From the NCBI GenBank assembly GCA_037443445.1, contig JBBIOJ010000007.1:5383-69382 (forward strand): 64,000 bases of DNA, written 5' to 3'. Below, piece by piece: positions 10,715-54,650 of the stretch (positions within the stretch are counted from its first letter, which is position 1; every line of letters starts with the position of its first letter). Both the position numbers and the translations under genes were made by a program. Source of the stretch: Desulfarculaceae bacterium. Lineage in GTDB: Bacteria; Desulfobacterota; Desulfocorpusculales; Desulfocorpusculum. The notes below the pieces were generated by a model that ran no database searches, had not been told where the DNA came from, and was given only the letters and a program-made list of their open reading frames with translations.

Positions 10715-10719
10715 GAAAG

Positions 10720-38160: not shown

Positions 38161-38253
38161 TCCTCCTGGGTGGCCTGGGAGATGAAGGGGTGCGGCCACA
38201 AAGAGATCCTATCTTACTCCGGCCCTGGGTCCTGCTTCAACCCCTTGACCCCA

Positions 38254-40935: not shown

Positions 40936-41049
40936 GAAAGCCTGGCTGGTGCTCTTGCGGCCCGACCTGGACCGACAAAGGCAGCAAAAGACGGAAAACG
41001 GGAGGGGGAAACCCCTCCCATGCTGTTGTGGGATCGCCTCGGGGCCTCT

Positions 41050-41553
41050 ATGGGAATGGAAGTCCTCATGGAAAGATTTCGGGTATTGGTCAGGAAGCTG
41101 AGCTACGGGGCCTGTTTCATTGGCATGCTTTTCGCCTTGCCTCTCATGCTCTTGACAGTGGCGGATGTTGCGGGCCGGGTCTTTTTTGACAAGCCAATTC
41201 CAGGCAGCTTCGAGCTTTCAGAGTACATGCTCTCAGTGCTGATCCTCATGGGAGCGGCCTACACCCAGCATGTGAAAGGGCATGTCGGGGTGGACTTTCT
41301 GACCAAGAGATTCTCCTCCAAGCTTCAGGACCTTTGCGGGGTGATCACCACCCTGGCCTGTCTTTTCATAGTCTCCATCTTGGTCTGGCAAGGCTATGTG
41401 GATGCCATGGCAGAGACAGCCGTGTCGGACCAACTCAGGATTCCCCAGCGGCCCTTCAAGATGCTTGTGGCATTGGGGGGGGGGCTGCTTTTCATGGAGT
41501 TCGCGGTGGATCTCTGGGAGAAGCTAGAGAGGCTCATGGGGAGGCGGCCATGA
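41050..41553 (+). CDS. dctQ: TRAP transporter small permease (DctQ), second system
   Basis: Four-TM protein of about 165 aa. Its stop overlaps the dctM start. Confidence 0.6.
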   Translation: MGMEVLMERFRVLVRKLSYGACFIGMLFALPLMLLTVADVAGRVFFDKPIPGSFELSEYMLSVLILMGAAYTQHVKGHVGVDFLTKRFSSKLQDLCGVITTLACLFIVSILVWQGYVDAMAETAVSDQLRIPQRPFKMLVALGGGLLFMEFAVDLWEKLERLMGRRP

Positions 41554-42857
41554 GCCCGATTCTGGCCGGATTGCTGGGGAGCCTTCTTCTTGTTGTGCTG
41601 CTGCTCCTGGGCATGCCCATAGCCTTCATGATGATGTTCGTGGGCTTCCTGGGGATCTGGCATCTGACCTCTCTGGAGGCAGCACTTCCCATAGTGGCCA
41701 AGACCCTCTATGGGGTGGCGGCACACTACCCTTACACCATCATCCCGCTTTTCATCCTGATGGGAGGGTTTGCCAGCGCAGCCGGGATCACCAGGGAGCT
41801 CTACGAGACCTTCGACAAGTGGTTCAGGAGACTGCCGGGAGGTCTCGGGGTGGCCACCATAGCGGCCTGTGCCGGGTTCGCGGCGGTGAGCGGATCCTCT
41901 GTGGCGGCAGCGGCTGCCATGGGCAATGTGGCCCTCCCTGAGATGCGCCGTTTCGGCTATGCCCCCAGGCTGGCCACCGGGGTGGTGGCTGCCGGGGGAA
42001 CTCTGAGTTTCCTTATCCCGCCAAGCTTGGGCTTCGTGGTTTACGGGATGCTCACGGAACAGTCCATTGGAAAGCTTCTTATCTCAGGGATCTTCCCTGG
42101 GATCATACTGGCCGGGGCCTATGGGCTTGTGGTGGTTTTTTGGGCCAAGCTCAAGCCAGAGGCGGCTCCGGCCTCTCCTCAAAAAGTGGGTTTCAGGGAA
42201 AAGATCCTGGCTCTGAGGGGGATATGGGAGACCTTCCTTGTGTTCCTTCTTGTCATGGGAGGGATCTACCTGGGCTTCATCAACCCCACTGAGGCCGGGG
42301 CCATGGGGGCCTTTGCACTTCTGGTGATAGTGCTCTTGAAAAGGAAGCTCACCTGGGGGGCTGCCGTGGCCTCTCTTCTGGAAGCCGCGCGTATCTCCAT
42401 CATGGTGCTCTTCCTGGTGGCAGGAGCCACTGTTTTCAGCTACTTTCTGGCACTCTCCACAATACCGGCAGCTGTCTCGGGTTGGATAGCAGGGTTGGAG
42501 ATCTCCAGGTACGTGATACTGGCCATAATAATTCTCATCTATTTCTTTCTGGGCTGCTTTCTGGATGCGGTATCAATGATGGTGCTGACCCTTCCTGTGA
42601 TATTCCCGGTGATACTGGCTCTAAACTTTCATCCCATATGGTTCGGAGTTGTGGCCATACTCATGATGGAGGCGGGCCTCATAACCCCACCGGTTGGGCT
42701 GAATGTTTACACCTTGGCCGGGGTGGCCAAGGATGTGCCGATGGCGGAGATTTTCAGAGGGGCCGTGCCCTTTCTCATGGCCATTGTCTTGACCGCAGTG
42801 ATCCTCACGGCGTTTCCAAAGATTGCGCTTTACCTGCCTGGTCTCATGGGCCGGTAA
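41550..42857 (+). CDS. dctM: TRAP transporter large permease (DctM), second system
   Basis: Start is MSPILAGLLGSLLLVV. DctM fold. Confidence 0.8.
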   Translation: MSPILAGLLGSLLLVVLLLLGMPIAFMMMFVGFLGIWHLTSLEAALPIVAKTLYGVAAHYPYTIIPLFILMGGFASAAGITRELYETFDKWFRRLPGGLGVATIAACAGFAAVSGSSVAAAAAMGNVALPEMRRFGYAPRLATGVVAAGGTLSFLIPPSLGFVVYGMLTEQSIGKLLISGIFPGIILAGAYGLVVVFWAKLKPEAAPASPQKVGFREKILALRGIWETFLVFLLVMGGIYLGFINPTEAGAMGAFALLVIVLLKRKLTWGAAVASLLEAARISIMVLFLVAGATVFSYFLALSTIPAAVSGWIAGLEISRYVILAIIILIYFFLGCFLDAVSMMVLTLPVIFPVILALNFHPIWFGVVAILMMEAGLITPPVGLNVYTLAGVAKDVPMAEIFRGAVPFLMAIVLTAVILTAFPKIALYLPGLMGR

Positions 42858-42869
42858 AGGAGGTCGGGC

Positions 42870-43619
42870 ATGACTAACTCGAGGTACAAGGAGGCCAGAT
42901 CCACCCCACAGGTGGTTTCTCTAGTGGATTATGCCTTGGAATACCTGGCAGAGGCCATAATCTCGGGCAGGTTGAGCCCTGGGCAACAGATAAAGGAGGA
43001 GGTGGTGGCCTCCAGGCTGGGTATAAGCCGCCCCCCCCTCAGGGAGGCCCTCAAGGCCCTGGAAATGGAAGGCCTGGTGGTGAGAAAGCCCAGAAAGGGG
43101 GTCTTTGTCTCTGAGATCAGAGAACAGGATGTCTGGGAGATCTATACCCTGAAGATGGCCTTGTATGGGCTTGCCACGTCTTTGGCGCTGGGGAAAGCCG
43201 CCCCCAAGGATCTCCAGAGGCTGGAGCGAACAGTGGAGCGCATGGAGGGCTGCCTGGCCAGGAGACCCCCAGATGTGTCCCGCTACCAGCTTTACCACGA
43301 GGAGTTCCACGGCCTCATCATGGACATGGCCGGAAACGAGAGACTAAAGAGGATTGCCTGGAGCCTCCACAAACAGGTCAAGCGCTTCAGCTACCGGTCC
43401 TTGATCCACGAGGGGCACCTGAGGAACTCCTGCAGGAGGCACAGGGAGATACTCCAGGCATTGCGGGAGAAAGACCCCGGGAAGGCGGAAGACTTGAGCA
43501 GGAAGCATGTCATGGAAGCCCTGGAGTTCCTGCTCGGGGTTCTCTCCGGGGGCCTCAGCTCCTTCGCGGAAAAGGGCCGTATCGAGCCTCTCAGGACCGT
43601 GCAAGGCGCTGTTTCTTGA
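42870..43619 (+). CDS. GntR-family transcriptional regulator (FadR/FCD subfamily)
   Basis: N-terminal GntR wHTH and a C-terminal FCD domain. Confidence 0.8.
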   Translation: MTNSRYKEARSTPQVVSLVDYALEYLAEAIISGRLSPGQQIKEEVVASRLGISRPPLREALKALEMEGLVVRKPRKGVFVSEIREQDVWEIYTLKMALYGLATSLALGKAAPKDLQRLERTVERMEGCLARRPPDVSRYQLYHEEFHGLIMDMAGNERLKRIAWSLHKQVKRFSYRSLIHEGHLRNSCRRHREILQALREKDPGKAEDLSRKHVMEALEFLLGVLSGGLSSFAEKGRIEPLRTVQGAVS

Positions 43620-43670
43620 TACTGCTCTAAGCGGCAAGAGCCATTCAATCCAGACAGGGGGGCTGCGTAA

Positions 43671-45224
43671 ATGACGGCTTCAAACCATGAACCCAGAAGG
43701 CTCAAGATTTACATCAACGGAAACTGGCTCGATTCAGAGACTCAAGAGTGGCTGGAGGTCAGAAATCCGGCAACGGATCAGGTCATAGCCTTGTGCCCTG
43801 AGGTGACCAAGGCTGAGATAGATCAAGCGGTGAGGGCGGCCCAGGAAGCCTTCTGGAGCTGGCGGATGACCCCTGCTCCCAGGAGGGCCAAACTCTTGTT
43901 CGAATTCCACAGGAGACTGCAGGAACATCAAGAAGAACTGGCCCGCCTCATAGTGAACGAGCACGGCAAGACCCTCTCGGACGCCATGGGGGAGCTCACG
44001 CGCTCATTTGAGTATGTGGAACATGCCTGCGCTGGGCCTGAACTGCTCAAAGGCGCCCATGCAGAGAATGTGGGAAGCGGAGTGGACACCCTGTACGTGA
44101 GGGAGCCCCTGGGCCCCTTTGTTTTCCTCCCCCCCTTTAACTTCCCGGCCATGATAGCCCTGTACTTCGTTTGGGCCATAGCCGCGGGCAACACAGCCAT
44201 TATCAAGGCCAGCCGCCTCTGCCCCATGACCGTGGTGCGCATCGTGGAGCTGGCTCACGAGTGCGGGTTCCCCAAAGGGGTCATAAACCTCCTGACTGGA
44301 TCAGGCAGGGGTGTGGGAAACCTCCTGGTGGTGCATCCGGGCACGGTGGGTGTGAGCTTTGTAGGTTCCTCAAGGGTGGGGGAGGAGGTCTACAAGATGG
44401 CCATACTTCACGGGAAAAGGGCCCAGTGTCAGGGGGGGGCCAAGAACCACGTGCTCATAGCCAAGGATGCCTTCCTGGATGAGGTTATCCCCAATGTGGT
44501 GGCCTCCTGCTTCGGCCACGTGGGGGAGCGTTGCTTTGCAGTGTCCAACGTGCTGGCGGTTGAAGAGGTGTACGAGGAGGTAAAGGAACGTTTTCTGGAA
44601 GAGTCAAGGAAACTCGTCTTGGGCTATGGTATGGATCCCAAGGTGAGCCTGGGGCCTGTGATCTCCAAGGAGGCGCTCCAGTCCATGCACCAGGAAATAG
44701 AAAGGGCTTTGGGGGAAGGGGCCAGGCTTCTCCTGGACGGCCGGAACCCTCAGGTGGAGGGGTACCCCAACGGGTATTTCCTGGGGCCTACGGTGTTGGA
44801 GGCAGAGCCGGAGATGAGGGTCTTCCAGGAGGAGATTTTCGGGCCTGTGCGTTGCCTAAAAAAGGTGAAAGGCCTGGCCGAAGGCGTGGAAATAATCAAT
44901 AGAAGTCCTTTTGGCCACACAGCCAACCTTTACACTGAAAACGGAGGCTGGGCCAGGGAGTTCGCCCTAAGGGTGAACGTGGGCCAGGTGGGCATAAACA
45001 TAGGCACCCCGGCTCCCATAGCCTATTTCCCTGTGGGGGGACGCAAGATTTCCATGTTCGGGGACATCAGGGGGAGGGCCAACGAGGCCATAGACTTTTA
45101 CACGGACAAGAAGGTGATCATAAGCCGATGGCATTCTTCCATAGGCGGTAAGGCAGGCTCTTTGGACGACGGCTTTGCCATGAGCTATGGGCCGGCAAGC
45201 ACCGGGGGGAAAAGGGGGGCATGA
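43671..45224 (+). CDS. Aldehyde dehydrogenase, methylmalonate-semialdehyde dehydrogenase (CoA-acylating)-like
   Basis: ALDH fold with catalytic Cys in GERCFAVS and NAD-binding motifs. MMSDH-like features. Confidence 0.75.
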   Translation: MTASNHEPRRLKIYINGNWLDSETQEWLEVRNPATDQVIALCPEVTKAEIDQAVRAAQEAFWSWRMTPAPRRAKLLFEFHRRLQEHQEELARLIVNEHGKTLSDAMGELTRSFEYVEHACAGPELLKGAHAENVGSGVDTLYVREPLGPFVFLPPFNFPAMIALYFVWAIAAGNTAIIKASRLCPMTVVRIVELAHECGFPKGVINLLTGSGRGVGNLLVVHPGTVGVSFVGSSRVGEEVYKMAILHGKRAQCQGGAKNHVLIAKDAFLDEVIPNVVASCFGHVGERCFAVSNVLAVEEVYEEVKERFLEESRKLVLGYGMDPKVSLGPVISKEALQSMHQEIERALGEGARLLLDGRNPQVEGYPNGYFLGPTVLEAEPEMRVFQEEIFGPVRCLKKVKGLAEGVEIINRSPFGHTANLYTENGGWAREFALRVNVGQVGINIGTPAPIAYFPVGGRKISMFGDIRGRANEAIDFYTDKKVIISRWHSSIGGKAGSLDDGFAMSYGPASTGGKRGA

Positions 45225-45365
45225 AGGGGTTGAACCGAGCCTGCTCAGCAAGTGCCTAAGGCAACAACGCTGGAGGGGGCAGGTGGGCTTGGGGTAGGCC
45301 CAAGGCCATCCAGGTCACAAACCCGGGGAGCAGGACTCCCACTCTCTTGCAAAAGGAGGACGGCC

Positions 45366-46121
45366 ATGAAGCAGGTTCTAACTTTCTCCATGATAGCCGC
45401 TTTGGTGGGGATGCTTTTGGCATGGCCACAGGCAATGGCTCAGGGGCCCAAGGTCCAGGGGGGCAAGGCCGCCCAGGCCCAATCCAAGGTAGGGGTGATA
45501 GTGGTGGACGTGCAGGGGGATTTCACCCAGTGGAAAAAAGGCTCTCTGGCTGTGCCCGGCACAGATAAGGCCTTTGTGGAAAAGGTTCGCAAGGCCACAG
45601 CCGCACTGGGCAAGGCAGGCTTTACCCTTTATGCCACCCAGGACTGGCACCCCTCTGATCATGTCTCCTTTTTCACCAACCATCCGGGCAAAAAGGCTTT
45701 TGACCTCATCAAGGTGGGCACCAAGGATCAGGTGCTTTGGCCCCCTCACTGCGTGCAAGGCACAGAGGGAGCCAGGGTGCTGGTGGACAACGATCTCTTC
45801 CTGGCCATCGTGAAGAAGGGGCAGGACAAGAACTTTGACAGCTACTCTGGGTTTCAGGACGATGGCGGGGCCAAGACCGAGATGGAGCGAATCCTCAAGG
45901 CCCGAGGCATAGAAAGGCTCATCATCTATGGGATAGCCACTGACTACTGCGTGAAAGCCACAGCCTTGGATGCGCTCGCAGCCGGGTTCAAGGTGACAGT
46001 GGTGGAAGAGCTCTGCCGGGGGGTGGCTCCCGAGACCACGGCCAAGGCCTTGGAGGAGATGAAAGCCAAAGGCGTCACTGTGCTCAAGTCTTTGGACCTG
46101 GAAGCCTTGAAGAGGATGTGA
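45366..46121 (+). CDS. pncA: Nicotinamidase/pyrazinamidase (isochorismatase family, PncA-like), with a signal peptide
   Basis: Motifs VVDVQGDF, ATQDWHPSDHVSF, WPPHCVQGTEGA and GIATDYCV, covering the catalytic D/K/C triad and metal ligands of PncA. Confidence 0.7.
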   Translation: MKQVLTFSMIAALVGMLLAWPQAMAQGPKVQGGKAAQAQSKVGVIVVDVQGDFTQWKKGSLAVPGTDKAFVEKVRKATAALGKAGFTLYATQDWHPSDHVSFFTNHPGKKAFDLIKVGTKDQVLWPPHCVQGTEGARVLVDNDLFLAIVKKGQDKNFDSYSGFQDDGGAKTEMERILKARGIERLIIYGIATDYCVKATALDALAAGFKVTVVEELCRGVAPETTAKALEEMKAKGVTVLKSLDLEALKRM

Positions 46122-46633
46122 CCGTGGAATGGGAGGAGCAAGAATCCCCTGCTCCCATCGGGGTGCGCTTCAGGCTGAACGGTCGGGAGGTGGCCCTGGA
46201 GGTTAGCCCCGGGGAGAGCCTGCTTTACCTGCTCAGGGAGAGGCTTGGTCTGAGGGGTACCAAGGAGGGGTGTGGCATCGGGGAGTGCGGGGCCTGCACC
46301 GTGGTGGTGGATGGGAAGGCTGCCAATGCCTGTCTCATGATGGCTGCACAGCTGGATGGAAGGGAGGTCCTGACAGTGGAGGGTCTGGAAAGCCCTGTGG
46401 GCCTTCACCCCCTGCAGGAGGCCTTCCTGGAACACCATGCCGTGCAATGTGGCTTTTGCACCCCGGGGATGCTCATGAGCTCGTACGCCTTGCTTTCATG
46501 CAATCCCAAACCCACAAGGGATCAGATCGTGGAGGCCCTGGCAGGGAACCTATGCCGCTGTACAGGCTACGAGCAGGTCCTGGAGGCTGTGGAGGCTGCT
46601 GCCAGGAGACTGGCCAATGGAAGGGGAAGGTGA
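46118..46633 (+). CDS. Molybdenum hydroxylase small subunit (2x[2Fe-2S]; CoxS/XdhC/NdhS-like)
   Basis: Motifs CGIGECGACTV and CGFCTPGM...CRCTGY. Confidence 0.85.
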   Translation: MTVEWEEQESPAPIGVRFRLNGREVALEVSPGESLLYLLRERLGLRGTKEGCGIGECGACTVVVDGKAANACLMMAAQLDGREVLTVEGLESPVGLHPLQEAFLEHHAVQCGFCTPGMLMSSYALLSCNPKPTRDQIVEALAGNLCRCTGYEQVLEAVEAAARRLANGRGR

Positions 46634-47490
46634 GGGGGACTTTCGCATATCACCGACCGAGTGACCTGGACGGGGCTCTGGAGCTCATGGATGAGTTGGG
46701 GGGGCAGGCCCTTCCCCTGGCAGGTGGGACCGACCTCATGGTGGAAATGCGAGAGGGGAAATACAGGGGTTACCACCTGGTGGATATCAGTAGGCTCCCC
46801 GAACTCAAGCTCCTGGAGCTACAGGATGGGGAGATTCACCTGGGGGCCGGCCTCACCTTCACCGAGATCTCGGGCTCGGAGCTTCTCAGGCTGCACGCCC
46901 CTGCCCTCGTGCAGGCAGCTTCCCAGATAGGGAGCCTCCAGATACGCAATGTGGCCACATTGGGAGGGAACGTGGTGCATTGCTCCCCCTGCGCGGACAG
47001 CGTGCCTGGGTTGTTGGTGCAGGACGCCAGGGCAATCTTGAGAAGTCTGGGAGGTACACGGGAGGTGCCGCTTCAGGAAATCCTTGTGGGGCCTTACAAG
47101 AGCGGTATACAGGCCGGGGAACTCCTGACTTGTTTCTGCCTCAGAAGCGCCTCAGGCATGTGGGGGGCCTTCCACAAGCTGGCCAGGAGAAGCTCCCTGG
47201 CCATAGCCAGGTTGAGCTTGGCAGTTCTGACAAGGCAGGGAGAAGAGGGGTTGAGTGATGTGCGGATCGCCCTTGGCTCTGGGACTCCTGTGCCACGCCG
47301 CATGGTGGAGGCTGAGGAGTTCCTCCTGGGCAAGGCCCCAAGAGAAAAGGATCTTTGGGAGGCAGGCCGTGTGCTGGCCTCAAAGATGGTGGAGGTGACC
47401 GGCAAAAGGCCTTCCACTGTTTACAAGGAGAAGGCGGCTCAGGGCCTCCTGGTCCAGGCCATGCTGCCCTTGGTGAGACATGGGAACTGA
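46630..47490 (+). CDS. Molybdenum hydroxylase FAD-binding medium subunit (CoxM-like)
   Basis: Probable GTG start overlapping the small-subunit stop. FAD-binding domain of the CO dehydrogenase flavoprotein family (AGGTDLMVEM). Confidence 0.65.
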   Translation: MRGTFAYHRPSDLDGALELMDELGGQALPLAGGTDLMVEMREGKYRGYHLVDISRLPELKLLELQDGEIHLGAGLTFTEISGSELLRLHAPALVQAASQIGSLQIRNVATLGGNVVHCSPCADSVPGLLVQDARAILRSLGGTREVPLQEILVGPYKSGIQAGELLTCFCLRSASGMWGAFHKLARRSSLAIARLSLAVLTRQGEEGLSDVRIALGSGTPVPRRMVEAEEFLLGKAPREKDLWEAGRVLASKMVEVTGKRPSTVYKEKAAQGLLVQAMLPLVRHGN

Positions 47491-49762
47491 GTTGGAATGG
47501 ATCTCCAGGTCCGTGCCCAGGATCGGTGCGCTGGAGCGCTTGAGGGGCATGCCCATTTTCGGTGCGGACATCCAGCTGGAAGATTGTCTGGTGCTCAGGG
47601 TATTCAGGAGCCACAGGCCTCATGCCAAGATCATGGAGCTGGACGTGGAAGAGGCCAGGAAGCTCCGGGGTGTGGAGGGGGTGTTCACAGCTAGGGATAT
47701 CCCCGGCAAAAACCTCATGGGCCTCATCACCAAGGACCAGCCGCTTCTGGCCCAAGACAGGGTGCGTTTCGTGGGAGACCCGGTGGCCTTGGTGGCCGCC
47801 AGGGACGAGGAGTCTGCCCAGAGGGGTTTGGAGGCCATAAGGGTCAGGTACCAGGAGCTCCCAAGCATCTTCTCTCCTGAGGAGGCCCTGGCCGAGGGGG
47901 CCGTGGCCATCCACGACAAGGGCAACCTGCTTCACAGAAGAGTGGTGCGAAAGGGGGATGCGGCCTCTGCCATGGAGAGGGCCGCCGTGGTGGTGGAGCG
48001 CACTTACCGAACCCCTCACATCGAGCACACTTACCTGGAGCCAGATGCCGGGGTCGGGTACCGGGAGTGGGACGGCACCTTGGTGATTCTGGCCTCCACA
48101 CAGAACCCCCACTATGACCAGAAGGAGGTGGCAGGGCTCCTGGGCCTGCAGGAGGAGAAGGTAAGGGTCATACAGGCTGCCACAGGGGGAGGGTTCGGCT
48201 CCAAGCTGGATCTCACAGTGCAGGGGTTCATAGGGCTTGCCCTGTACCACTTGGGAAGGCCGGTGCGTTTGGTCTTCACTCGGGAGGAGGCATACCTGGC
48301 CACTCCCAAGCGCCATCCCCTCACCATATGGATGAGGACAGGGGCTGACTCCAAGGGCAAGCTCCTGGCCCTCCAGGCCAGGATAGTGTGTGACACAGGA
48401 GCCTACTCCTCTTACGGGGTGGCAGTTGCCACCAGGGCCGCCATCCACGCCACTGGACCCTACGAGGTGGAAAACGTGGAGGTGGAGAGCCTGGCCGTTT
48501 ACACCAACAATCCCATAGCCGGTGCCATGAGGGGTTTCGGGGTTCCCCAGGTGGCCTTTGCCCATGAATCCCAGATGGATCTCTTGGCCCAGGAGCTTGG
48601 GATGGATCCTCTCCAGATCCGCCTCAGAAACGCTTTTCAGGAGGGATCCTCCACCGCAACGGGCCAGAAGCTGGGCTCCAGCGTTGGAATCCTGGAGTGC
48701 CTGGAGGCCCTGGAGCCCCATTATCGTGAGGCTGTAAGCTCCTGGAAGGGCTCGGGCGGCTCCAGGTACCTGAGAAGAGGTGTTGGGCTTGGGGCCATGT
48801 GGTACGGCATAGGCAACACAGGGGTCCAAAACCCGTCCACTGCCAGGGTTGAGCTGGACGATGACGGCCGTGTCACGCTTTATATAGGGGCGGCTGACAT
48901 GGGGCAGGGCTCCACAACGGTCCTGGCCCAGATAGCAGCCCAGGTGCTGGGCATGCAGCCAGAGAGGCTAAGACTGGTGGTGGCGGACACTGCACGCACT
49001 TCCAATGCCGGGGCTTCCTCTGCCAGCCGCCAGACATACATATCAGGCAATGCCGTGCTGGAGGCCTGTGCCAAGCTGGCCCAGGTGCTCCTCACAGAGG
49101 CTTCGGACATGCTCAGGGCCCCCAAGCACACACTTCTGCTCAAGGGTGAGGGGGTGGCTGACTCCACGGATCCCCAAAGGAGTGTCTCTTTCATGGAGCT
49201 GGCACAAAGGGCCAGGAAAAAGAACATACCCCTGTCCTGGCAAGGCTACTTCGATCCAGAGACTACCCCCCTTGACCCGGAGACCGGCCAGGGAATCCCC
49301 TACGCCACTTACGCCTTTGCATGTCAGATGGCCCAGGTGGAAGTGGATGTGCTCACGGGCAGGGTGAGGGTTCGCAGGGTCGCGGCTGCACACGATGTGG
49401 GAAGGGCAGTGCACCCCGAGGCGGTGAAGGGGCAGATCCTGGGAGGGGTGGCCATGGGCTTGGGCTTCGCGCTCATGGAGGAGTTCGTTCCCGGCTCCAC
49501 TGTATCCATGAAGGACTATCACATCCCCACTGCTGCGGACATGCCCGAGGTGGTTCCCATCATAGTAGAAGCTCCAGAGCCCACAGGTCCTTTTGGGGCA
49601 AAGGGAGTGGGGGAGCCTGCCCTGATCCCAACCGCCCCGGCCATCCTGAATGCCATAGCCGATGCCTTGGGGGAGCGGATATACCAGCTGCCCGCCAATC
49701 TGGAGAGGGTGCTGGAGGCCTGCATCAGGGCAGGCCATTTTCCAAGCATGGAGGTCAAGTGA
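47480..49762 (+). CDS. Molybdenum hydroxylase large (molybdopterin-binding) subunit, xanthine dehydrogenase family
   Basis: 760 aa with aldehyde oxidase/xanthine dehydrogenase a/b hammerhead and MoCo-binding domains. Confidence 0.85.
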   Translation: MGTELEWISRSVPRIGALERLRGMPIFGADIQLEDCLVLRVFRSHRPHAKIMELDVEEARKLRGVEGVFTARDIPGKNLMGLITKDQPLLAQDRVRFVGDPVALVAARDEESAQRGLEAIRVRYQELPSIFSPEEALAEGAVAIHDKGNLLHRRVVRKGDAASAMERAAVVVERTYRTPHIEHTYLEPDAGVGYREWDGTLVILASTQNPHYDQKEVAGLLGLQEEKVRVIQAATGGGFGSKLDLTVQGFIGLALYHLGRPVRLVFTREEAYLATPKRHPLTIWMRTGADSKGKLLALQARIVCDTGAYSSYGVAVATRAAIHATGPYEVENVEVESLAVYTNNPIAGAMRGFGVPQVAFAHESQMDLLAQELGMDPLQIRLRNAFQEGSSTATGQKLGSSVGILECLEALEPHYREAVSSWKGSGGSRYLRRGVGLGAMWYGIGNTGVQNPSTARVELDDDGRVTLYIGAADMGQGSTTVLAQIAAQVLGMQPERLRLVVADTARTSNAGASSASRQTYISGNAVLEACAKLAQVLLTEASDMLRAPKHTLLLKGEGVADSTDPQRSVSFMELAQRARKKNIPLSWQGYFDPETTPLDPETGQGIPYATYAFACQMAQVEVDVLTGRVRVRRVAAAHDVGRAVHPEAVKGQILGGVAMGLGFALMEEFVPGSTVSMKDYHIPTAADMPEVVPIIVEAPEPTGPFGAKGVGEPALIPTAPAILNAIADALGERIYQLPANLERVLEACIRAGHFPSMEVK

Positions 49763-49763
49763 C

Positions 49764-50927
49764 ATGTCTACGGTGCTTCTCAGGAACATAGGTACACTCG
49801 TGAGTGGAAAGCTCGAGGAGCCTCTCCTGGTGGCGGATGCCATTCTCATCCGGGACGGGAAGATCCAGAAGGTGGGTTTCCTCAGGGACATGGAGGAATC
49901 CCAGGCCCAAGTGGTCATAGACTGTGCCGGGACAACAGTAATCCCAGGCCTGGTGGACTCCCACTGCCACCCGGTACTGGGGGACTTCACTCCCAGGCAG
50001 AACCAAGTGGGCTATTTGGACAGTGGGGTGCACGGGGGTGTCACCACGGTGATATCGGCCGGGGAGGTGCATCTGCCTGGAAGGCCAAAAGACCCGGCAG
50101 GCACAAAGGCCTTGGCAATACTGGCTGCCAAGAGCTTTTCCGCATTTCGTCCGGGTGGAGCAAAGGTGCTGGGCGGGGCCCTCATCCTGGAGAAAGGTCT
50201 TACAGAGGCAGACTTTGAGGAGGCTGCCAGGGAAGGTGTCAAGGTGGTAGGTGAGATAGGGTTGGGCTCTGTCAAGTCACCCGAAGACGCCAGGCCCATG
50301 GTGAGGTGGGCCAAACAAAACGGAATGGTTGTCATGATGCACACTGGGGGGACTTCCATTCCCGGCAGTTCCACGGTGGGGGCGGAGCAGGTCATGGCCG
50401 TGGGGCCTGACGTGGTATCTCACATAAACGGCGGCACCACCGCCATGTCCATGGCCGAGGTACAGAGACTCATCAGAGAAACCCCCTATGCCCTGGAGAT
50501 AGTGCATTGCGGGAACATGAAGGTGGCGGTGGAGGCAGCCGGGCTCATAGCCGAGGCTGGAGCCAAGCAAAGGGTGGTGATCGGAAACGATGCCCCCTCG
50601 GGCACAGGGGTGGTGCCTCTTGGCATCCTAAGGGTTATCACTCTTTTGGCAGGGCTGTCCCCTATCAGGCCCGAAGAAGCCGTGTGCATGGCCACAGGCA
50701 ATACCACACGCCTTTACAAACTGCCCAGGGGGATAATAGAGCCCGGCATGGAGGCAGACTTGGTGATAATGGACGCCCCTTTGGGCTCTGTGGGCAGAGA
50801 TGCTCTCTCGGCCATGGCCGCGGGAGACATCCCCGGGATTTCCATGGTGCTGGTGGATGGGCAAGTCTTGGTGCAGAAAAGCAGAAACACCCCGCCCGCC
50901 ACCAGGCAGGCCTTTGTGGTGAAATAG
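49764..50927 (+). CDS. Amidohydrolase-superfamily enzyme, enamidase-like (6-oxo-1,4,5,6-tetrahydronicotinate amidohydrolase-like)
   Basis: Metal-binding HxH (VDSHCHPVLGDF). Size and context match enamidase of the nicotinate fermentation pathway (inference). Confidence 0.55.
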   Translation: MSTVLLRNIGTLVSGKLEEPLLVADAILIRDGKIQKVGFLRDMEESQAQVVIDCAGTTVIPGLVDSHCHPVLGDFTPRQNQVGYLDSGVHGGVTTVISAGEVHLPGRPKDPAGTKALAILAAKSFSAFRPGGAKVLGGALILEKGLTEADFEEAAREGVKVVGEIGLGSVKSPEDARPMVRWAKQNGMVVMMHTGGTSIPGSSTVGAEQVMAVGPDVVSHINGGTTAMSMAEVQRLIRETPYALEIVHCGNMKVAVEAAGLIAEAGAKQRVVIGNDAPSGTGVVPLGILRVITLLAGLSPIRPEEAVCMATGNTTRLYKLPRGIIEPGMEADLVIMDAPLGSVGRDALSAMAAGDIPGISMVLVDGQVLVQKSRNTPPATRQAFVVK

Positions 50928-51101
50928 GCCTAACCCTCAGCCCTCTTAGCAAGCACTGTGGAAGCGTGCCAGGGGTTTGGGGGCGAAGCCCCCAATCTGG
51001 CGGTTCCTGGAGAATTGTCCTAGCCAATTGCGGGCGGCTCTACGCCCGGTTCTGAATCCTGGACTCTCAAGGCCGCCGTGGGCCGCGGCCCAAGAGGTGA
51101 G

Positions 51102-52616
51102 ATGATGCTAGTTGATTCTAGGAAATGCACTGGTTGCGGGGAGTGCGTGCTGGCCTGCCCTCTGGGGGTCTTGAGGCTGAAGGCCAAGAAGGCCCATGTT
51201 GGAGAGGGCTGCAGCCTCTGCGGGGCCTGCAAGAGGGTCTGTGCCCAGGAAGCCATTGATTTTCCAAGAGATACGCCCCAGGGCTCTGTGCGCTGCGAGG
51301 CCTGCCCCGTAGGGTGCCAGATCAGGGAAGGTTTCCTGGGAGCCTGCCAGAGGTATCGCAACCAGCAGGGGCTTCTGGTAAGGGAGGTCCCTCTCCACAG
51401 CTTCAGGGATGTGGCCCAGGTGGTGGGGGAAGATGTGGCCCAGGAGCTGAGAAAGCCCCTGATCACGGCCATAGGAGCAGGCACCACCTATCCTGACTGC
51501 AGGCCGGCCCCCCATATTTTGCGCGGGAAGGTAAGAGGGGTGGAGGTGGTGACGGTTGTGACAGAGGCGCCTCTCAGCTACAGTTCGGTGCTGGTGAAGG
51601 TGGACACGGACTTGCCAGTGGGGGAAGAGGGGGCAAGGGTGAAGGTGGGCAAGAAGACCGTGGGTCACCTGACCACAGAGCAGTACGGCTCCAAGATGCT
51701 CTCCATAGGGGGGGTGAATCTCTTGACCGGCCCGGAGGGTATGGTGGTGGCCCGAACCCTTTGCGACATTGCCAACCGCAGGCCCGTGAGGCTGACCGTG
51801 GAAGGAGGAGCCAGGCTCGAGCTCCGAGTGGGCTTTCCCCCGGTCGTGGATGGTAAGGAGGCCTCCAGGATGCGGGTGGGCTGCGGAAGCGCCACCATGG
51901 GGCTTTTTGCACCTCTGTTCAAGGAGGCGGCCGACGAGGTGATAGTCCTGGACTCCCACCTGACAGGCCTCATGAGCGAACATGCTGCCGGGAGGTTTGT
52001 AGGGGTTAGGCCCACGGGGGTAAGGCTCCGTTTCAGGCAATCCACCCCCGGGAGATATTTCGGTGACCAAGGATCGGGTTGGGGGGGTACCTCCATCCTG
52101 GAGCCCAGGGAGGTGATCCAGGAGGTGGACATGAAGGTGGCTTGGCCTGGAATGAGAATACTTGTCACCGAGACCACCGGGGAAAGGGCAGTCATGTTCC
52201 AGGTGGGCCATGGAGGGGACCTCCAGGAAGTGGAGCTGACAGAGCAGGCCAAGCAGGCCGTAAGGGCCGTGGCTTCCAGCTGCGAGCCTGCCCGCGTGTC
52301 CGCCCTCTACATGGGAGGGGCGGGGGGTAGCGCCAGGGCCGGGGTGAGCAGGTACCCCATCAAGCTTACCCAGGCGGTGCATGCCAGAAAGGCCAATTTG
52401 ACTGTGGGAGGGGCCCCCAGTTTCATTCTGCCGGGCGGAGGAATAAACTTCATGGTGGATGTGGAGAGGGTGAAGATGGGCTCTTTCTATTGGACCCCCA
52501 CTCCAGCCACCATCTGCCCCATAGAGTACACCATGCGCCTTAGTGACTACCAAGAGATGGGCGGGCATGTGGAAGCCATGAAGCCTTTCCGGGTGGCCAG
52601 AGGGAAAGGGGTATGA
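51102..52616 (+). CDS. 6-hydroxynicotinate reductase-like protein (N-terminal 2x[4Fe-4S] ferredoxin domain plus a large uncharacterised domain)
   Basis: Motifs CTGCGECVLACP and CSLCGACKRVC at the N-terminus. Architecture and adjacency to the enamidase-like and Mo-hydroxylase genes (inference). Confidence 0.45.
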   Translation: MMLVDSRKCTGCGECVLACPLGVLRLKAKKAHVGEGCSLCGACKRVCAQEAIDFPRDTPQGSVRCEACPVGCQIREGFLGACQRYRNQQGLLVREVPLHSFRDVAQVVGEDVAQELRKPLITAIGAGTTYPDCRPAPHILRGKVRGVEVVTVVTEAPLSYSSVLVKVDTDLPVGEEGARVKVGKKTVGHLTTEQYGSKMLSIGGVNLLTGPEGMVVARTLCDIANRRPVRLTVEGGARLELRVGFPPVVDGKEASRMRVGCGSATMGLFAPLFKEAADEVIVLDSHLTGLMSEHAAGRFVGVRPTGVRLRFRQSTPGRYFGDQGSGWGGTSILEPREVIQEVDMKVAWPGMRILVTETTGERAVMFQVGHGGDLQEVELTEQAKQAVRAVASSCEPARVSALYMGGAGGSARAGVSRYPIKLTQAVHARKANLTVGGAPSFILPGGGINFMVDVERVKMGSFYWTPTPATICPIEYTMRLSDYQEMGGHVEAMKPFRVARGKGV

Positions 52617-52702
52617 GCCGGGGGGGAAAGAGCCCTGGTGGTTTCAAGCCTGGAACTCCCCAAAGCGCGCAAGAGAAAGGCCGCTGGGTTTCCTGAAGAA
52701 GC

Positions 52703-53554
52703 ATGGGCTACGAGCAAGAGATAAGCTTGCTTAGGGATGGCTCGGTTCTGGTGGAGTGTGGGCCCATGCGCCTCAGAATCTGGGCCTGGATGGGAAGGCT
52801 TTCGCAGCCCAAGGAGGCCATGAGGGCGGCCCAGGAGTCCATCGGTTTGCTTGAGCAGGCAGCAGCCCAACGGCCTTGGCTCACGGCTTCCTGGGAATCA
52901 GTCTGCCAGGAAAGACTGGGATCCCTGGGGCACAGGATGTGGCAGAGTGTGGCCATGGTGGGGGATCCTGACCTCACACCCATGGCTGCCGTGGCCGGGA
53001 GCATAGCAGACGGGGTTGCGGATTTTCTGGAGGCCAGGGGTCTTACCAGGGTGATCGTGGAAAACGGCGGAGACATAGCCTTGAGGCTGGCCCCTGGGGA
53101 AAAGGTGCAAGTGGGACTGCGCCCCAGGGTGGACCGCAAGAGGGTGAGCCACTCTCTGGGACTTGATGGCTCAAGAGCCTCCTGGGGGGTGGCCACAAGC
53201 GGTCTTGGAGGCAGGAGCTTCACGCGCGGAATAGCCTGGTCTGCCACGGTTGTGGCCCCCAGGGCATCCATCGCAGATGCGGCTGCAACGGCCGTGGCCA
53301 ATGCCACCTGGTTTCCCTGCGAGCAGGCAAGGAGAGTCAGGGCCGGGCAACTGGACCCTGATTCGGACATAGCCAAACTGGAGGTGACCGTGGGGGTAGG
53401 AAGGCTTCCCTTGGATGTGGCTTCCAGGGGTTTGGAAAAGGGGCTGGCAAGAGCCGCGGATCTGAGAGCTCGCGGGGTCATAGAGGGGGCTTTTTTGTGC
53501 GTGGGTTCCATGTGCGGCTCGGTGGGGCTTGGGGATCTTCTTGAGGCAGTCTGA
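52703..53554 (+). CDS. UPF0280/ApbE-like family protein
   Basis: 283 aa with Gly/Ala-rich conserved blocks. Family assignment is tentative. Confidence 0.35.
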   Translation: MGYEQEISLLRDGSVLVECGPMRLRIWAWMGRLSQPKEAMRAAQESIGLLEQAAAQRPWLTASWESVCQERLGSLGHRMWQSVAMVGDPDLTPMAAVAGSIADGVADFLEARGLTRVIVENGGDIALRLAPGEKVQVGLRPRVDRKRVSHSLGLDGSRASWGVATSGLGGRSFTRGIAWSATVVAPRASIADAAATAVANATWFPCEQARRVRAGQLDPDSDIAKLEVTVGVGRLPLDVASRGLEKGLARAADLRARGVIEGAFLCVGSMCGSVGLGDLLEAV

Positions 53555-53571
53555 AAGGAGGAGGTGCTCAG

Positions 53572-54150
53572 ATGGAAATAAGGAAAATAGTCACCCTGGT
53601 GGAGGAGGTTTGGGAAGAGGGAGGCATGGTTGTGAAACCCCCTGTGAAAAGGGCCGCTGCCATAGCCGTGATCAAGAACCCTTTTGCAGGAAAGTTCGTC
53701 CAGGAGCTTTCGGAGCTCATTGATGCAGGGGAGAAGCTGGGGGATCTCCTGGGGAAAAAGGCCGTAGAGGTGCTGGGAGTCCCGCCTGAGAAGGTGGAGA
53801 GTTATGGCAAGGCGGCCATAGTTGGGAGCAAGGGTGAGCTGGAGCACGCCGCTGCGATTCTTCATCCCAAGCTGGGCACTCCTTTTAGGGCAGCCGTGGG
53901 AGGGGGCAAGGCCATCATCCCCTCTGCCAAGAAGTTCGGGGTGCCGGGAACGGAAATAGACGTGCCCGTGCACTTCAAGGATGCGGCATTTGTGCGCTCT
54001 CACTTCGATGCCATGCCCGTGAGGGTGTACGACGCTCCCAGGGAGGACGAGATAGTTGTAGCCCTGGTGGTCACAGACTCGGGCCGTCCCCTTCCCAGGA
54101 TAGGCGGGCTCAAGAAAGAGGAGGCCAAGAAGGAAGACGGGCTTAGGTAA
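53572..54150 (+). CDS. Amino-acid-synthesis (PF06684-like) family protein
   Basis: 192 aa; tentative family match (KAAIVGSKGELEHAAAILHP). Confidence 0.35.
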   Translation: MEIRKIVTLVEEVWEEGGMVVKPPVKRAAAIAVIKNPFAGKFVQELSELIDAGEKLGDLLGKKAVEVLGVPPEKVESYGKAAIVGSKGELEHAAAILHPKLGTPFRAAVGGGKAIIPSAKKFGVPGTEIDVPVHFKDAAFVRSHFDAMPVRVYDAPREDEIVVALVVTDSGRPLPRIGGLKKEEAKKEDGLR

Positions 54151-54173
54151 TTCACACCCCGGGGGTGGTCGGA

Positions 54174-54650
54174 ATGGATAAGTCGGGGCTTCTCAAAAGG
54201 CTGGAGAAGGCCTGGGAGGAACTCAAGGACTCCTACGCAGACTTGGGGGAGCAGGAGCTCTTGGAGTCCGGCGTGACAGGCGATTGGTCGGTTAAAGATA
54301 TTGTCGCGCATGTGAGCTCCTGGGAGGAGGAGGCCCTGACTTACCTACCCGTGATCCTGGAGGGGGGAAAACCGCCTAAGTACTCAGTCCTGTACGGAGC
54401 CATAGACACCTTCAATGCCCGTATGACCCAAGAAAACCGAAAACTCTCACTCTCAGAGGTAATCCAGAGACGGGATTTCATCCATGCCAAGCTCTTGGAA
54501 TTCATAGGAGAGGTCCAGCAAGAATATTTTCTCAAGGAAAACCGTTTTAGGCGTAGGCTTAGGTTGGACACCTACGGCCACTATAGAGAGCACGCCCAAG
54601 CCATAAAAAACTGGAAGGAAAGGAAGGCCCAGGTCTCCTGCAACAGATAG
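54174..54650 (+). CDS. ClbS/DfsB-family (DUF1706) four-helix-bundle protein
   Basis: Motif WSVKDIVAHVSSWEEE, typical of the family. Confidence 0.45.
   Translation: MDKSGLLKRLEKAWEELKDSYADLGEQELLESGVTGDWSVKDIVAHVSSWEEEALTYLPVILEGGKPPKYSVLYGAIDTFNARMTQENRKLSLSEVIQRRDFIHAKLLEFIGEVQQEYFLKENRFRRRLRLDTYGHYREHAQAIKNWKERKAQVSCNR

What the first reader, a model, noticed from the sequence alone, without database searches (positions are those of the whole stretch)
42870..54150. Candidate anaerobic nicotinate/nicotinamide (N-heterocycle) degradation cluster in a non-clostridial background
The gene order is GntR regulator, MMSDH-like ALDH, secreted PncA nicotinamidase, a three-subunit molybdenum hydroxylase (S/M/L), an enamidase-like amidohydrolase, and a protein with the 6-hydroxynicotinate reductase architecture (N-terminal 2x[4Fe-4S] ferredoxin plus a large domain). 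This is preceded by a TRAP transporter (39856..42857) and followed by UPF0280-like and AA-synthesis-family genes. Mo-hydroxylase plus Hnr plus enamidase is the core of the Eubacterium barkeri nicotinate fermentation route. The CoA-acylating semialdehyde dehydrogenase here would suggest a different fate for 2-formylglutarate than the B12-dependent clostridial branch. The E. barkeri nicotinate dehydrogenase needs a labile selenium cofactor, which ties in with the apparent selenium biology of this genome.
Basis: inference. Interest (0 to 1): 0.6.

Follow-up and report, generated by a model that had tools for sequence, protein, structure and literature searches.

The report
Anaerobe's nicotinate/nicotinamide breakdown operon
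This is a real gene cluster for breaking down vitamin B3 (nicotinate and nicotinamide) in a non-clostridial anaerobe; its first three steps match the known Eubacterium barkeri route, and it appears to replace the B12-dependent lower branch with one aldehyde dehydrogenase step that probably yields glutaryl-CoA.

Summary
The amidohydrolase is a full-length enamidase (58.5% identity to E. barkeri Ena, PDB 2VUN). The ferredoxin-headed protein is a full-length 6-hydroxynicotinate reductase homologue (48% over 496 aa). The Mo subunit matches NdhL and NdhM of E. barkeri nicotinate dehydrogenase better than any other solved Mo-hydroxylase. It keeps the nicotinate-binding Tyr13(M) and has no CO-dehydrogenase CSFR loop. 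The two "extra" genes (UPF0280/ApbE-like and AA_synth) also sit in the E. barkeri cluster.

Closest relatives are uncultured Thermodesulfobacteriota-type MAGs. In metagenomes the layout TRAP transporter, MMSDH-type ALDH, Ndh, Ena, Hnr, UPF0280, AA_synth is common: 22 of 29 informative loci carry the ALDH directly upstream of ndhS. Firmicute clusters have no ALDH and carry the B12 branch instead.

My inference is as follows. An exported PncA makes nicotinate, and the TRAP system imports it. The ALDH then converts 2-formylglutarate to glutaryl-CoA plus CO2.

The Ndh/Hnr/Ena core in Proteobacteria has been known since 2006, and a nicotinate-degrading sulfate reducer since 1983. This is therefore a new variant of a known pathway. 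The selenium link is untested.

The parts
39856..40935 (+). TRAP solute-binding protein DctP with a twin-arginine-type leader (SRRDFLK); predicted nicotinate receptor
   Evidence: Pfam DctP E 1e-42; sequence; 359 aa, as in relative L108. It is syntenic with the cluster in most metagenome loci. No close solved relative.
41068..41553 (+). TRAP small membrane subunit DctQ
   Evidence: Pfam DctQ E 6e-28. The start was chosen to give 161 aa, as in L108.
41550..42857 (+). TRAP large membrane subunit DctM
   Evidence: Pfam DctM E 3e-96; 435 aa, as in L105 and L108. DctM is present in 24 of 29 informative metagenome loci.
42870..43619 (+). GntR/FCD-family transcription regulator; presumed pathway regulator, effector unknown
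   Evidence: Pfam GntR + FCD. It holds the same position in L083, L105 and L108.
43671..45224 (+). MMSDH-type (CoA-acylating, beta-decarboxylating) aldehyde dehydrogenase; predicted 2-formylglutarate to glutaryl-CoA + CO2
   Evidence: TIGR01722 473.4 bits against a 448.5 cut-off. The best PDB hits are all MMSDHs. Hallmark residues are conserved: no Glu at the general-base position, and GAKNH, GERC, R111 and R287 are kept. Orthologues of 76-84% identity occupy the same slot in L020, L072, L073 and L083.
45366..46121 (+). Exported nicotinamidase (PncA-like isochorismatase-fold hydrolase) with a Sec signal peptide MKQVLTFSMIAALVGMLLAWPQAMA|QG
   Evidence: Pfam Isochorismatase. NF008623 nicotinamidase/pyrazinamidase scores 171.6 against a 174 cut-off. 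RBS and ATG are visible. The motifs VDVQGDF, QDWHPxxH and ATDYCV are present. Signal-like N-termini occur in 8 of 9 distinct homologous loci.
46118..46633 (+). Nicotinate dehydrogenase small subunit (2 x [2Fe-2S]), NdhS-like
   Evidence: Pfam Fer2 + Fer2_2. It is 45-47% identical to E. barkeri NdhS.
46630..47490 (+). Nicotinate dehydrogenase FAD subunit, NdhF-like
   Evidence: Pfam FAD_binding_5 + CO_deh_flav_C. It is 31% identical to NdhF over 287 aa. The start is a GTG within a GTGA overlap.
47480..49762 (+). Nicotinate dehydrogenase molybdopterin subunit, a fusion of NdhL and NdhM
   Evidence: PDB 3HRD_A matches residues 1-411 at E 1e-124 and 3HRD_B matches 432-743 at E 5e-79, the best of all solved Mo-hydroxylases. 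Tyr442 corresponds to Tyr13 of NdhM. There is no CSFR loop, and the catalytic Glu sits in GVGEPA.
49764..50927 (+). Enamidase (1,4,5,6-tetrahydro-6-oxonicotinate to 2-formylglutarate + NH3)
   Evidence: PDB 2VUN enamidase E 3.6e-143, end to end. It is 58.5% identical to the E. barkeri gene.
51105..52616 (+). 6-hydroxynicotinate reductase (Hnr): 2 x [4Fe-4S], a third four-Cys cluster, and a large catalytic domain with no solved relative
   Evidence: It is 48% identical over 496 aa to the E. barkeri hnr gene product. Twelve N-terminal Cys are invariant. Homologues are named 6-hydroxynicotinate reductase by JGI and NCBI. No PDB relative exists beyond the ferredoxin part.
52703..53554 (+). UPF0280 / ApbE-like protein (Pfam AbpE_bact); candidate flavin transferase for the covalent flavin of Hnr
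   Evidence: Pfam ApbE 26.8 bits; PF27030 in relatives. The profile hits FAD:protein FMN transferase 6NXJ at E 4e-4. It lies directly downstream of hnr in 44 of 45 metagenome loci and 14 of 15 Firmicute loci, including E. barkeri.
53572..54150 (+). AA_synth (PF06684/DUF1185) protein; conserved cluster member of unknown role
   Evidence: Pfam E 1e-73. PDB 2QTP is an uncharacterized protein. It is 62% identical to the gene next to ena in E. barkeri.
54165..54650 (+). DinB/DUF1706 protein; co-oriented and syntenic only in close relatives, probably a passenger
   Evidence: Pfam. It is present after AA_synth in L105 and L108 but not in the other loci.

Best explanation
The region 39856-54150 is a catabolic operon for nicotinate and nicotinamide in an anaerobic bacterium of the Thermodesulfobacteriota type. 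The proposed flow has seven steps. (1) A Sec-exported PncA deamidates external nicotinamide to nicotinate in the periplasm. (2) A TRAP transporter, which needs a carboxylate substrate, imports nicotinate. (3) A three-subunit Mo/FAD/Fe-S nicotinate dehydrogenase hydroxylates C6. (4) Hnr, with its built-in ferredoxin domain, reduces 6-hydroxynicotinate to tetrahydro-6-oxonicotinate. (5) Enamidase opens the ring to 2-formylglutarate and ammonia. (6) An MMSDH-type aldehyde dehydrogenase treats 2-formylglutarate as a 2-substituted malonate semialdehyde: it oxidises it, decarboxylates the thioacyl-enzyme intermediate and releases glutaryl-CoA, which enters the usual anaerobic glutaryl-CoA to crotonyl-CoA to acetyl-CoA route encoded elsewhere. 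(7) The ApbE-like UPF0280 protein probably matures Hnr, the role of AA_synth is unknown, and GntR/FCD regulates. Steps 3-5 rest on homology to characterised enzymes. Steps 1, 2, 6 and 7 are inferred from sequence features and conserved gene order.
For: Enamidase matches PDB 2VUN at E 3.6e-143 over its full length. Hnr is 48% identical over 496 aa, Ena 58.5%, NdhL 48.7% and NdhM 46% to the E. barkeri VPI 5359 cluster. The search is reciprocal, and each E. barkeri protein hits only this cluster. Ndh is the best solved match for the Mo subunit. Tyr13(M), modelled to bind the nicotinate ring N (PMC5746545), is conserved here and in about 60 cluster-linked homologues. Hnr keeps all 12 cluster-binding Cys. 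UPF0280 and AA_synth are cluster members in E. barkeri as well. The ALDH passes the MMSDH cut-off. Its hallmark residues are invariant across 26 cluster-linked ALDHs and B. subtilis MSDH. An MMSDH-type ALDH sits directly upstream of ndhS in 22 of 29 informative metagenome loci, drawn from two separate ALDH clades, and in none of the Firmicute loci. No homologue of the E. barkeri lower branch is in the window. PncA has a signal peptide here and in 8 of 9 homologous loci. TRAP is present in 24 of 29 loci. Identical synteny occurs in related MAGs. Published precedents exist. A. caulinodans degrades nicotinate through THON and glutarate (PMC3511419, PMC9304392). A nicotinate-degrading sulfate reducer, Desulfococcus niacini, is known (cited in PMC12700296).
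Against: No enzyme of this locus or of its close relatives has been assayed. The ALDH substrate and product are inferred only. No glutaryl-CoA-metabolising gene lies in the window or next to the cluster in the loci I inspected. PncA falls 2.4 bits short of the curated nicotinamidase cut-off. The TRAP binding protein has no close characterised relative. No conserved operator or promoter was found. Three of the 29 loci lack any ALDH hit.
Confidence: 0.8

Rival explanations
1. The upper pathway is as proposed, but the ALDH works as in the Azorhizobium route. 2-Formylglutarate first loses CO2, spontaneously or through another enzyme. The ALDH then oxidises glutarate semialdehyde to glutarate or glutaryl-CoA, and a separate CoA transferase is needed if glutarate is the product.
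For: A. caulinodans is reported to convert THON to central metabolites through glutarate (PMC3511419). From my memory of Kitts 1992, decarboxylation precedes oxidation there. An ALDH is adjacent in most clusters, which fits either order of events.
Against: Both cluster-linked ALDH clades are MMSDH-like. They lack the general-base Glu used by hydrolytic ALDHs. They also keep the two Arg that, in B. subtilis MSDH, hold the substrate's beta-carboxylate (the residue roles are from memory). This suits a substrate that still carries the 2-carboxyl and a CoA-dependent release.
Confidence: 0.2
2. The cluster degrades a different N-heterocyclic carboxylate or amide, such as pyrazinamide/pyrazinoate, an isomeric pyridine carboxylate or a substituted nicotinate, rather than nicotinate itself.
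For: PncA enzymes also hydrolyse pyrazinamide (name of NF008623). Mo-hydroxylase specificity cannot be read reliably from sequence (PMC5746545). Identities to E. barkeri are only 46-58%.
Against: All three core enzymes and both accessory genes co-occur exactly as in the experimentally defined nicotinate cluster. Tyr13(M) is conserved. Enamidase is 58.5% identical over its full length.
Confidence: 0.08
3. The Mo enzyme is a xanthine, CO or aldehyde dehydrogenase, and the neighbouring genes are an unrelated amidohydrolase and ferredoxin protein. On this view the resemblance to the nicotinate pathway is coincidental.
For: The NCBIfam best hit by score is pucD, a xanthine dehydrogenase subunit, at 614 bits. 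No equivalog cut-off is reached.
Against: The pucD score is below its 783 cut-off. NdhL and NdhM outrank every XDH, CODH and aldehyde oxidoreductase structure. There is no CSFR loop. Ena and Hnr homology is full-length. The same gene set recurs in more than 80 loci.
Confidence: 0.02

Closest known systems
Eubacterium barkeri nicotinate fermentation cluster (Alhapel et al. 2006; Ndh PDB 3HRD, enamidase PDB 2VUN)
   Same: Both have Ndh (S, FAD, Mo), Hnr, Ena, the UPF0280/ApbE-like gene next to hnr and the AA_synth gene. Identities are 31-62% and all are reciprocal best matches. Tyr13(M) and the Hnr Cys motifs are conserved.
   Different: Here the Mo subunit is a single fused polypeptide, not split into NdhL and NdhM. 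No Hgd, Hmd, B12 mutase, isomerase or dimethylmalate enzymes are in the window. Instead there is an MMSDH-type ALDH, a TRAP transporter, an exported PncA and a GntR regulator. The host is a Gram-negative anaerobe lineage. Selenium dependence is unknown.
Proteobacterial nicotinate clusters (Azorhizobium caulinodans AZC_2790-2804, Bradyrhizobium, Rhodopseudomonas; PMC3511419) and the Azorhizobium THON/glutarate pathway (Kitts 1989, 1992)
   Same: These are also non-clostridial clusters. [quoted passage not shown] Carbon is routed through a C5 dicarboxylate (glutarate/glutaryl-CoA) rather than the B12 branch.
   Different: Those clusters use an ABC transporter and occur in aerobes. Glutarate is reported as a free intermediate there. 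Here the transporter is a TRAP system, the ALDH is of the CoA-acylating decarboxylating type, and PncA is exported. I could not inspect the alphaproteobacterial loci directly to see whether they hold an ALDH.
CoA-acylating methylmalonate/malonate-semialdehyde dehydrogenase (MmsA/IolA; B. subtilis MSDH, PDB 1T90)
   Same: The ALDH is about 40% identical. It scores above the TIGR01722 cut-off, keeps the catalytic Cys and both Arg, and has no general-base Glu.
   Different: Its genomic context is nicotinate catabolism, not valine, inositol or beta-alanine catabolism. The predicted substrate carries a carboxyethyl group at C2 instead of H or methyl.
Desulfococcus niacini, a nicotinate-degrading sulfate reducer (Imhoff-Stuckle & Pfennig 1983, cited in PMC12700296)
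   Same: It is a physiological precedent for complete anaerobic nicotinate degradation outside the clostridia, in the same broad lineage as this cluster's closest relatives.
   Different: I found no gene-level pathway description for it in the searchable literature. I could not check its genome here.

Membership tests
E. barkeri-type nicotinate dehydrogenase (xanthine dehydrogenase family) | Three cofactor modules: 2 x [2Fe-2S], FAD and molybdopterin | tested here: met
   Pfam finds Fer2/Fer2_2, FAD_binding_5/CO_deh_flav_C and Ald_Xan_dh_C/MoCoBD_1/MoCoBD_2 in three adjacent genes.
E. barkeri-type nicotinate dehydrogenase (xanthine dehydrogenase family) | Closer to NdhL/NdhM than to XDH, CODH, 4-HBCR or aldehyde oxidoreductases | tested here: met
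   3HRD_A scores 420 bits and 3HRD_B 270 bits. The next best are 4-HBCR at 390 bits, XDH at about 263 and CODH at about 186-252.
E. barkeri-type nicotinate dehydrogenase (xanthine dehydrogenase family) | Tyr13 of NdhM (modelled H-bond to the nicotinate ring N; Phe in XDH) | tested here: met
   Tyr442 lies in AMWYGIGNTG. The Tyr is conserved in all cluster-linked homologues. Its role is taken from PMC5746545.
E. barkeri-type nicotinate dehydrogenase (xanthine dehydrogenase family) | Molybdopterin protein split into two subunits (L and M) | tested here: not met
   It is a single 760-aa ORF spanning both. Most Firmicute homologues are also fused, so the split appears specific to E. barkeri and E. 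aggregans rather than to the function.
E. barkeri-type nicotinate dehydrogenase (xanthine dehydrogenase family) | Labile selenium ligand on Mo | not testable with these tools
   Selenium is not encoded in the protein sequence. No SelD, YqeB, YqeC or tRNA-Sec was found among the window ORFs examined.
6-hydroxynicotinate reductase (Hnr) | Full-length homology to the E. barkeri hnr product | tested here: met
   48% identity over 496 of 503 aa, E about 1e-130, reciprocal.
6-hydroxynicotinate reductase (Hnr) | Cys ligands for two [4Fe-4S] clusters plus a further Fe-S cluster | tested here: met
   Cys 8/11/14/18, 36/39/42/46 and 64/67/71/81 are invariant in 43 sequences. The cofactor content of the E. 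barkeri enzyme is recalled from Alhapel 2006.
6-hydroxynicotinate reductase (Hnr) | Covalently bound flavin | not testable with these tools
   There is only indirect evidence. An ApbE-like gene is adjacent. An invariant GCGSA[T/S] motif resembles the ApbE target motif D-x-x-[ST]-G-A-[ST] only loosely (PMC12052999).
Enamidase (amidohydrolase superfamily) | End-to-end similarity to the solved enamidase, including the HxH metal motif | tested here: met
   2VUN at E 3.6e-143, residues 1-384 aligned. DSHCHP here matches DTHVHV in 2VUN.
CoA-acylating methylmalonate-semialdehyde dehydrogenase (TIGR01722) | Score above the curated family cut-off | tested here: met
   473.4 bits against 448.5. The second, commoner cluster-linked ALDH clade scores 338-382 bits and does not pass.
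CoA-acylating methylmalonate-semialdehyde dehydrogenase (TIGR01722) | Catalytic Cys, no general-base Glu, two carboxylate-binding Arg | tested here: met
   C288, R111 and R287 are invariant. The Glu268 position is Q, N or L in all 28 sequences. The residue roles are from memory of the B. subtilis MSDH literature.
CoA-acylating methylmalonate-semialdehyde dehydrogenase (TIGR01722) | Physiological substrate is (methyl)malonate semialdehyde | not testable with these tools
   The context argues for 2-formylglutarate instead.
Nicotinamidase/pyrazinamidase PncA | Curated family score and catalytic/metal motifs | tested here: inconclusive
   NF008623 scores 171.6 bits, just under the 174 cut-off. The Asp, Lys and Cys motifs and DWHPxxH are present by eye.
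Complete E. barkeri nicotinate fermentation (B12-dependent lower branch) | Hgd, Hmd, 2-methyleneglutarate mutase, methylitaconate isomerase, dimethylmalate dehydratase and lyase | tested here: not met
   No tblastn match for any downstream E. barkeri ORF in the 64-kb window. These genes could still lie elsewhere in the genome.
ApbE FAD:protein FMN transferase | Sequence membership and the metal/FAD motif | tested here: inconclusive
   Pfam ApbE scores 26.8 against 25.6 over a partial domain. The profile hits 6NXJ at E 4e-4, with D192-A-x-x-T196 aligned to ADGLAT. The protein is about 60-70 residues shorter than the solved ApbEs (283 aa against 328-340).

The most novel reading that the evidence does not exclude
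This cluster type would define an undescribed anaerobic nicotinate oxidation route, widespread in sediment Thermodesulfobacteriota. In it, a dedicated MMSDH-like '2-formylglutarate dehydrogenase (CoA-acylating, decarboxylating)' links enamidase directly to glutaryl-CoA, replacing six enzymes of the clostridial branch. In addition, the UPF0280 protein would be a cytoplasmic ApbE-type flavin transferase that installs the covalent flavin of Hnr, an enzyme whose catalytic domain has no solved structural relative.
Probability: 0.45. Interest if true: 0.6.

Novelty: new variant of a known kind. Interest (0 to 1): 0.45.

Why it matters
Nicotinate and nicotinamide are released wherever cells lyse, yet the only anaerobic pathway defined at the gene level is the B12-dependent clostridial fermentation. 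This locus and its many metagenomic relatives give a concrete, testable gene set for how sulfate-reducer-type anaerobes could oxidise vitamin B3 completely. It proposes a new substrate for the MMSDH family. It also assigns candidate functions to two long-standing "conserved unknown" genes of the nicotinate cluster. The upper pathway itself is not new.

Tried and rejected
- **Original papers:** I tried to read Alhapel 2006, Wagener 2009 and Kitts 1992, but none is held. Statements about them rest on secondary papers or on memory and are marked as such.
- **Encoding contigs:** An exact-sequence look-up of the window's Hnr and ALDH found nothing. Relatives were used instead.
- **Promoters and terminators:** The scan found nothing above chance except a plausible terminator at 39717-39740, upstream of dctP.
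- **Operator search:** A palindrome TCTACTGTAGA upstream of dctP is compatible with chance (29 of 100 shuffles gave at least one match) and is absent from all 111 loci. I dropped it.
- **RNA elements:** Rfam found only tRNAs and no riboswitch.
- **TRAP binding protein:** It has no informative solved relative.
- **MSDH residue roles:** Literature searches for them found nothing.
- **Downstream genes:** I looked for glutaryl-CoA genes next to the cluster in five relatives and found none.
- **CO and xanthine dehydrogenase readings:** These were rejected.

Full report
**Observation.**
The + strand from 39856 to 54650 carries a tight run of co-oriented genes. Pfam and NCBIfam give the following order.
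- TRAP DctP, DctQ and DctM
- a GntR/FCD regulator
- an aldehyde dehydrogenase that passes the curated MMSDH model (TIGR01722, 473.4 against 448.5 bits)
- an isochorismatase-fold protein whose best family is nicotinamidase/pyrazinamidase (171.6 against 174 bits)
- the three subunits of a molybdenum hydroxylase
- an amidohydrolase
- a protein with two 4Fe-4S motifs and a 430-residue domain that matches no family
- a UPF0280/ApbE-like protein
- an AA_synth protein
- a DinB-like protein

I corrected three start sites.
- PncA begins at ATG 45366 behind AAGGAGG.
- The FAD subunit begins at GTG 46630, in a GTGA overlap with the preceding stop.
- Hnr begins at ATG 51105.

Flanking genes are unrelated. 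LutABC-like genes and an endonuclease/phosphatase-family gene lie upstream. Opposite-strand genes and an IS element lie downstream.

The amidohydrolase aligns end to end with the crystallised E. barkeri enamidase 2VUN at E 3.6e-143. I rebuilt the enamidase sequence from that alignment and used it to fetch the E. barkeri VPI 5359 locus (L001). I then compared all window proteins with it by tblastn.

| Window protein | E. barkeri counterpart | Identity |
|---|---|---|
| Hnr | hnr product | 48% over 496 of 503 aa |
| Ena | Ena | 58.5% |
| Mo subunit, N half | NdhL | 48.7% |
| Mo subunit, C half | NdhM | 46% |
| S subunit | NdhS | 47% |
| FAD subunit | NdhF | 31% |
| UPF0280 | gene directly after hnr | 40% |
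| AA_synth | gene directly after ena | 62% |

The reverse search gives the same one-to-one pairs. It finds nothing in the window for any E. barkeri lower-branch gene.

Among all solved structures the Mo subunit is closest to NdhL plus NdhM. 4-Hydroxybenzoyl-CoA reductase, aldehyde oxidoreductases, xanthine dehydrogenases and CO dehydrogenases all score lower. It has no CSFR loop. Tyr13 of NdhM is the residue modelled to bind the ring nitrogen of nicotinate and is Phe in xanthine dehydrogenase (PMC5746545). It is Tyr442 here and is Tyr in every cluster-linked homologue I collected. Hnr keeps twelve invariant N-terminal cysteines in three CxxC-type groups. As I recall the report on the E. barkeri enzyme, it has two [4Fe-4S] clusters and one [2Fe-2S] cluster, which fits. 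The upper pathway assignment, nicotinate to 6-hydroxynicotinate to tetrahydro-6-oxonicotinate to 2-formylglutarate plus ammonia, is therefore well supported by homology.

**Host and distribution.**
The Hnr protein has thousands of relatives. Many come from MAGs labelled Deltaproteobacteria or Desulfobacteraceae, and several are already named 6-hydroxynicotinate reductase. The window's ALDH shares a 90%-identity cluster with a protein from a MAG labelled Thermodesulfobacteriota. Related assemblies (NCBI GCA_037481695.1 and a Logan assembly) show the same 17-gene neighbourhood, from the phosphate transporter through LutABC to the DinB gene. The cluster is therefore a stable chromosomal feature of that lineage.

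A metagenome scan with an Hnr alignment returned 80 further loci. I scored all window proteins against them.
- UPF0280 follows hnr in 44 of 45 loci with enough downstream DNA. The figure is 14 of 15 in Firmicutes.
- Of 29 loci with more than 2.5 kb upstream of ndhS, 22 have an ALDH directly upstream.
- A further four of the 29 have an ALDH that is cut by the contig end or lies elsewhere in the locus.
- Of the same 29 loci, 24 have a TRAP DctM.
- None of the 20 Firmicute loci has either an ALDH or a TRAP system.

**The aldehyde dehydrogenase.**
The cluster-linked ALDHs fall into two clades. One is orthologous to the window's enzyme (76-84% identity; L020, L072, L073, L083). The other, which is commoner, is only 36-41% identical. 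Its best family is still MMSDH, but below the cut-off.

An alignment of 28 sequences included B. subtilis MSDH (taken from the PDB alignment). In it the catalytic Cys, the oxyanion Asn, the GxKN motif and two arginines are invariant. The position of the general-base Glu of hydrolytic ALDHs is never Glu.

From established knowledge of MSDH, which I recall and could not retrieve, three points follow:
- these enzymes oxidise a 3-oxopropanoate to a thioacyl-enzyme
- they decarboxylate it on the enzyme and release the acyl group to CoA
- the two arginines hold the substrate carboxylate

2-Formylglutarate is exactly such a 2-substituted malonate semialdehyde, so the predicted product is glutaryl-CoA plus CO2 and NADH. 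This one step would replace the reductase, dehydratase, B12 mutase, isomerase, hydratase and lyase of E. barkeri. It would feed the glutaryl-CoA route that anaerobes of this lineage already use. It also parallels the glutarate route reported for A. caulinodans (PMC3511419). This step is inference, and I give it about 0.55-0.6.

**Uptake.**
PncA carries a typical Sec signal peptide with an AMA|Q cleavage motif. Signal-like N-termini occur in 8 of 9 distinct homologous loci. TRAP binding proteins recognise carboxylates, which is general knowledge. Exported deamidation of nicotinamide to nicotinate followed by TRAP import is therefore a coherent, though untested, logic. PncA and GntR are present in only a minority of loci (4 of 29 each) and so are optional modules.

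**Accessory genes.**
A profile of 34 UPF0280 proteins hits the hypothetical protein 2O34 and, weakly, the FAD:protein FMN transferase ApbE (6NXJ, E 4e-4). The invariant D192-A-x-x-T196 aligns to the ApbE ADGLAT motif. Pfam now files these proteins as AbpE_bact.

Hnr is reported to hold a covalent flavin (my recollection of Alhapel 2006), and the gene is almost always adjacent to hnr. A role as Hnr flavin transferase is therefore attractive. However, the invariant GCGSA[T/S] of Hnr matches the canonical ApbE target motif only loosely (PMC12052999). I rate this idea at about 0.35-0.4.

AA_synth matches only uncharacterised structures. The Hnr catalytic domain has no solved relative by sequence profile or by Foldseek with an AlphaFold2 model of pLDDT 77.

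**What is not supported.**
The proposed tie to selenium cannot be tested from sequence. No SelD, YqeB, YqeC or tRNA-Sec appeared among the window genes I examined. No riboswitch, conserved operator or convincing promoter was found.

**Novelty.**
The core cluster outside clostridia is already in the literature. Ndh, Hnr and Ena plus a transporter and two conserved unknown proteins were reported in A. caulinodans, Bradyrhizobium and Rhodopseudomonas (PMC3511419, citing Alhapel 2006). A nicotinate-degrading sulfate reducer was isolated in 1983 (cited in PMC12700296). I could not find any description of four things:
- the TRAP/ALDH/exported-PncA architecture
- the assignment of 2-formylglutarate to an MMSDH-type enzyme
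- a maturase role for UPF0280
- the other full-text searches also turned up none of these

I therefore file this as a new variant of a known kind, of moderate interest.

Noticed in passing
window 51105-52616 (residues ~85-503 of Hnr): The catalytic domain of 6-hydroxynicotinate reductase has no Pfam family and no solved structural relative. Several invariant Gly-rich loops (123-134, 314-322, 406-416, 442-448) are the low-confidence parts of the AlphaFold2 model and are probably cofactor sites.
   Followed up: partly
metagenome loci L025-L104, e.g. L049:3652-5150, L081:759-2250: A second, divergent MMSDH-like ALDH clade (motifs SSINGNGKNH and GQRCLG) scores below the TIGR01722 cut-off. It is the commoner partner of nicotinate clusters (19 of 22 loci).
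   Followed up: partly
L110 (GCA_041299665.1) 6156-12480: This cluster variant has GntR, ALDH, Ena, Hnr and the ApbE-like gene but no adjacent Mo hydroxylase. Either 6-hydroxynicotinate is the entry substrate or Ndh is encoded elsewhere.
   Followed up: no
window 18243-22936: A second TRAP transporter (DctM-type 21410-22936) lies near an IclR-family regulator (18243-19010, - strand). Its substrate is unknown.
   Followed up: no
window 25522-28854 (- strand): Genes for a multi-subunit pyruvate/2-oxoacid:ferredoxin oxidoreductase (PorB, PorA, PorC). This fits an anaerobic host that supplies reduced ferredoxin, the kind of donor Hnr would need.
   Followed up: no
window 35283-38199 (- strand): LutABC-like lactate-utilisation genes (LUD and CCG domains) lie directly upstream of the cluster region. 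They are syntenic in related MAGs.
   Followed up: no
window 56008-56955 (- strand): An ADP-ribosylglycohydrolase gene lies 1.4 kb downstream of the co-oriented gene run (which ends at 54650), on the opposite strand. Any link to NAD turnover is speculative.
   Followed up: no
window 58772-59836: An IS630-like transposase (DDE_3 with HTH domains) lies downstream of the cluster.
   Followed up: no
window 47141-48829 (-) and 51108-52568 (-): Long antisense ORFs (562 and 486 aa) lie inside the Mo-subunit and Hnr genes. I read them as artefacts of the high G+C content, not genes; no test was run on them.
   Followed up: no
window 54165-54650: A DinB/DUF1706 gene sits 14 nt after AA_synth. It is conserved in that position only in the closest relatives (L105, L108) and is probably not part of the pathway.
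   Followed up: partly
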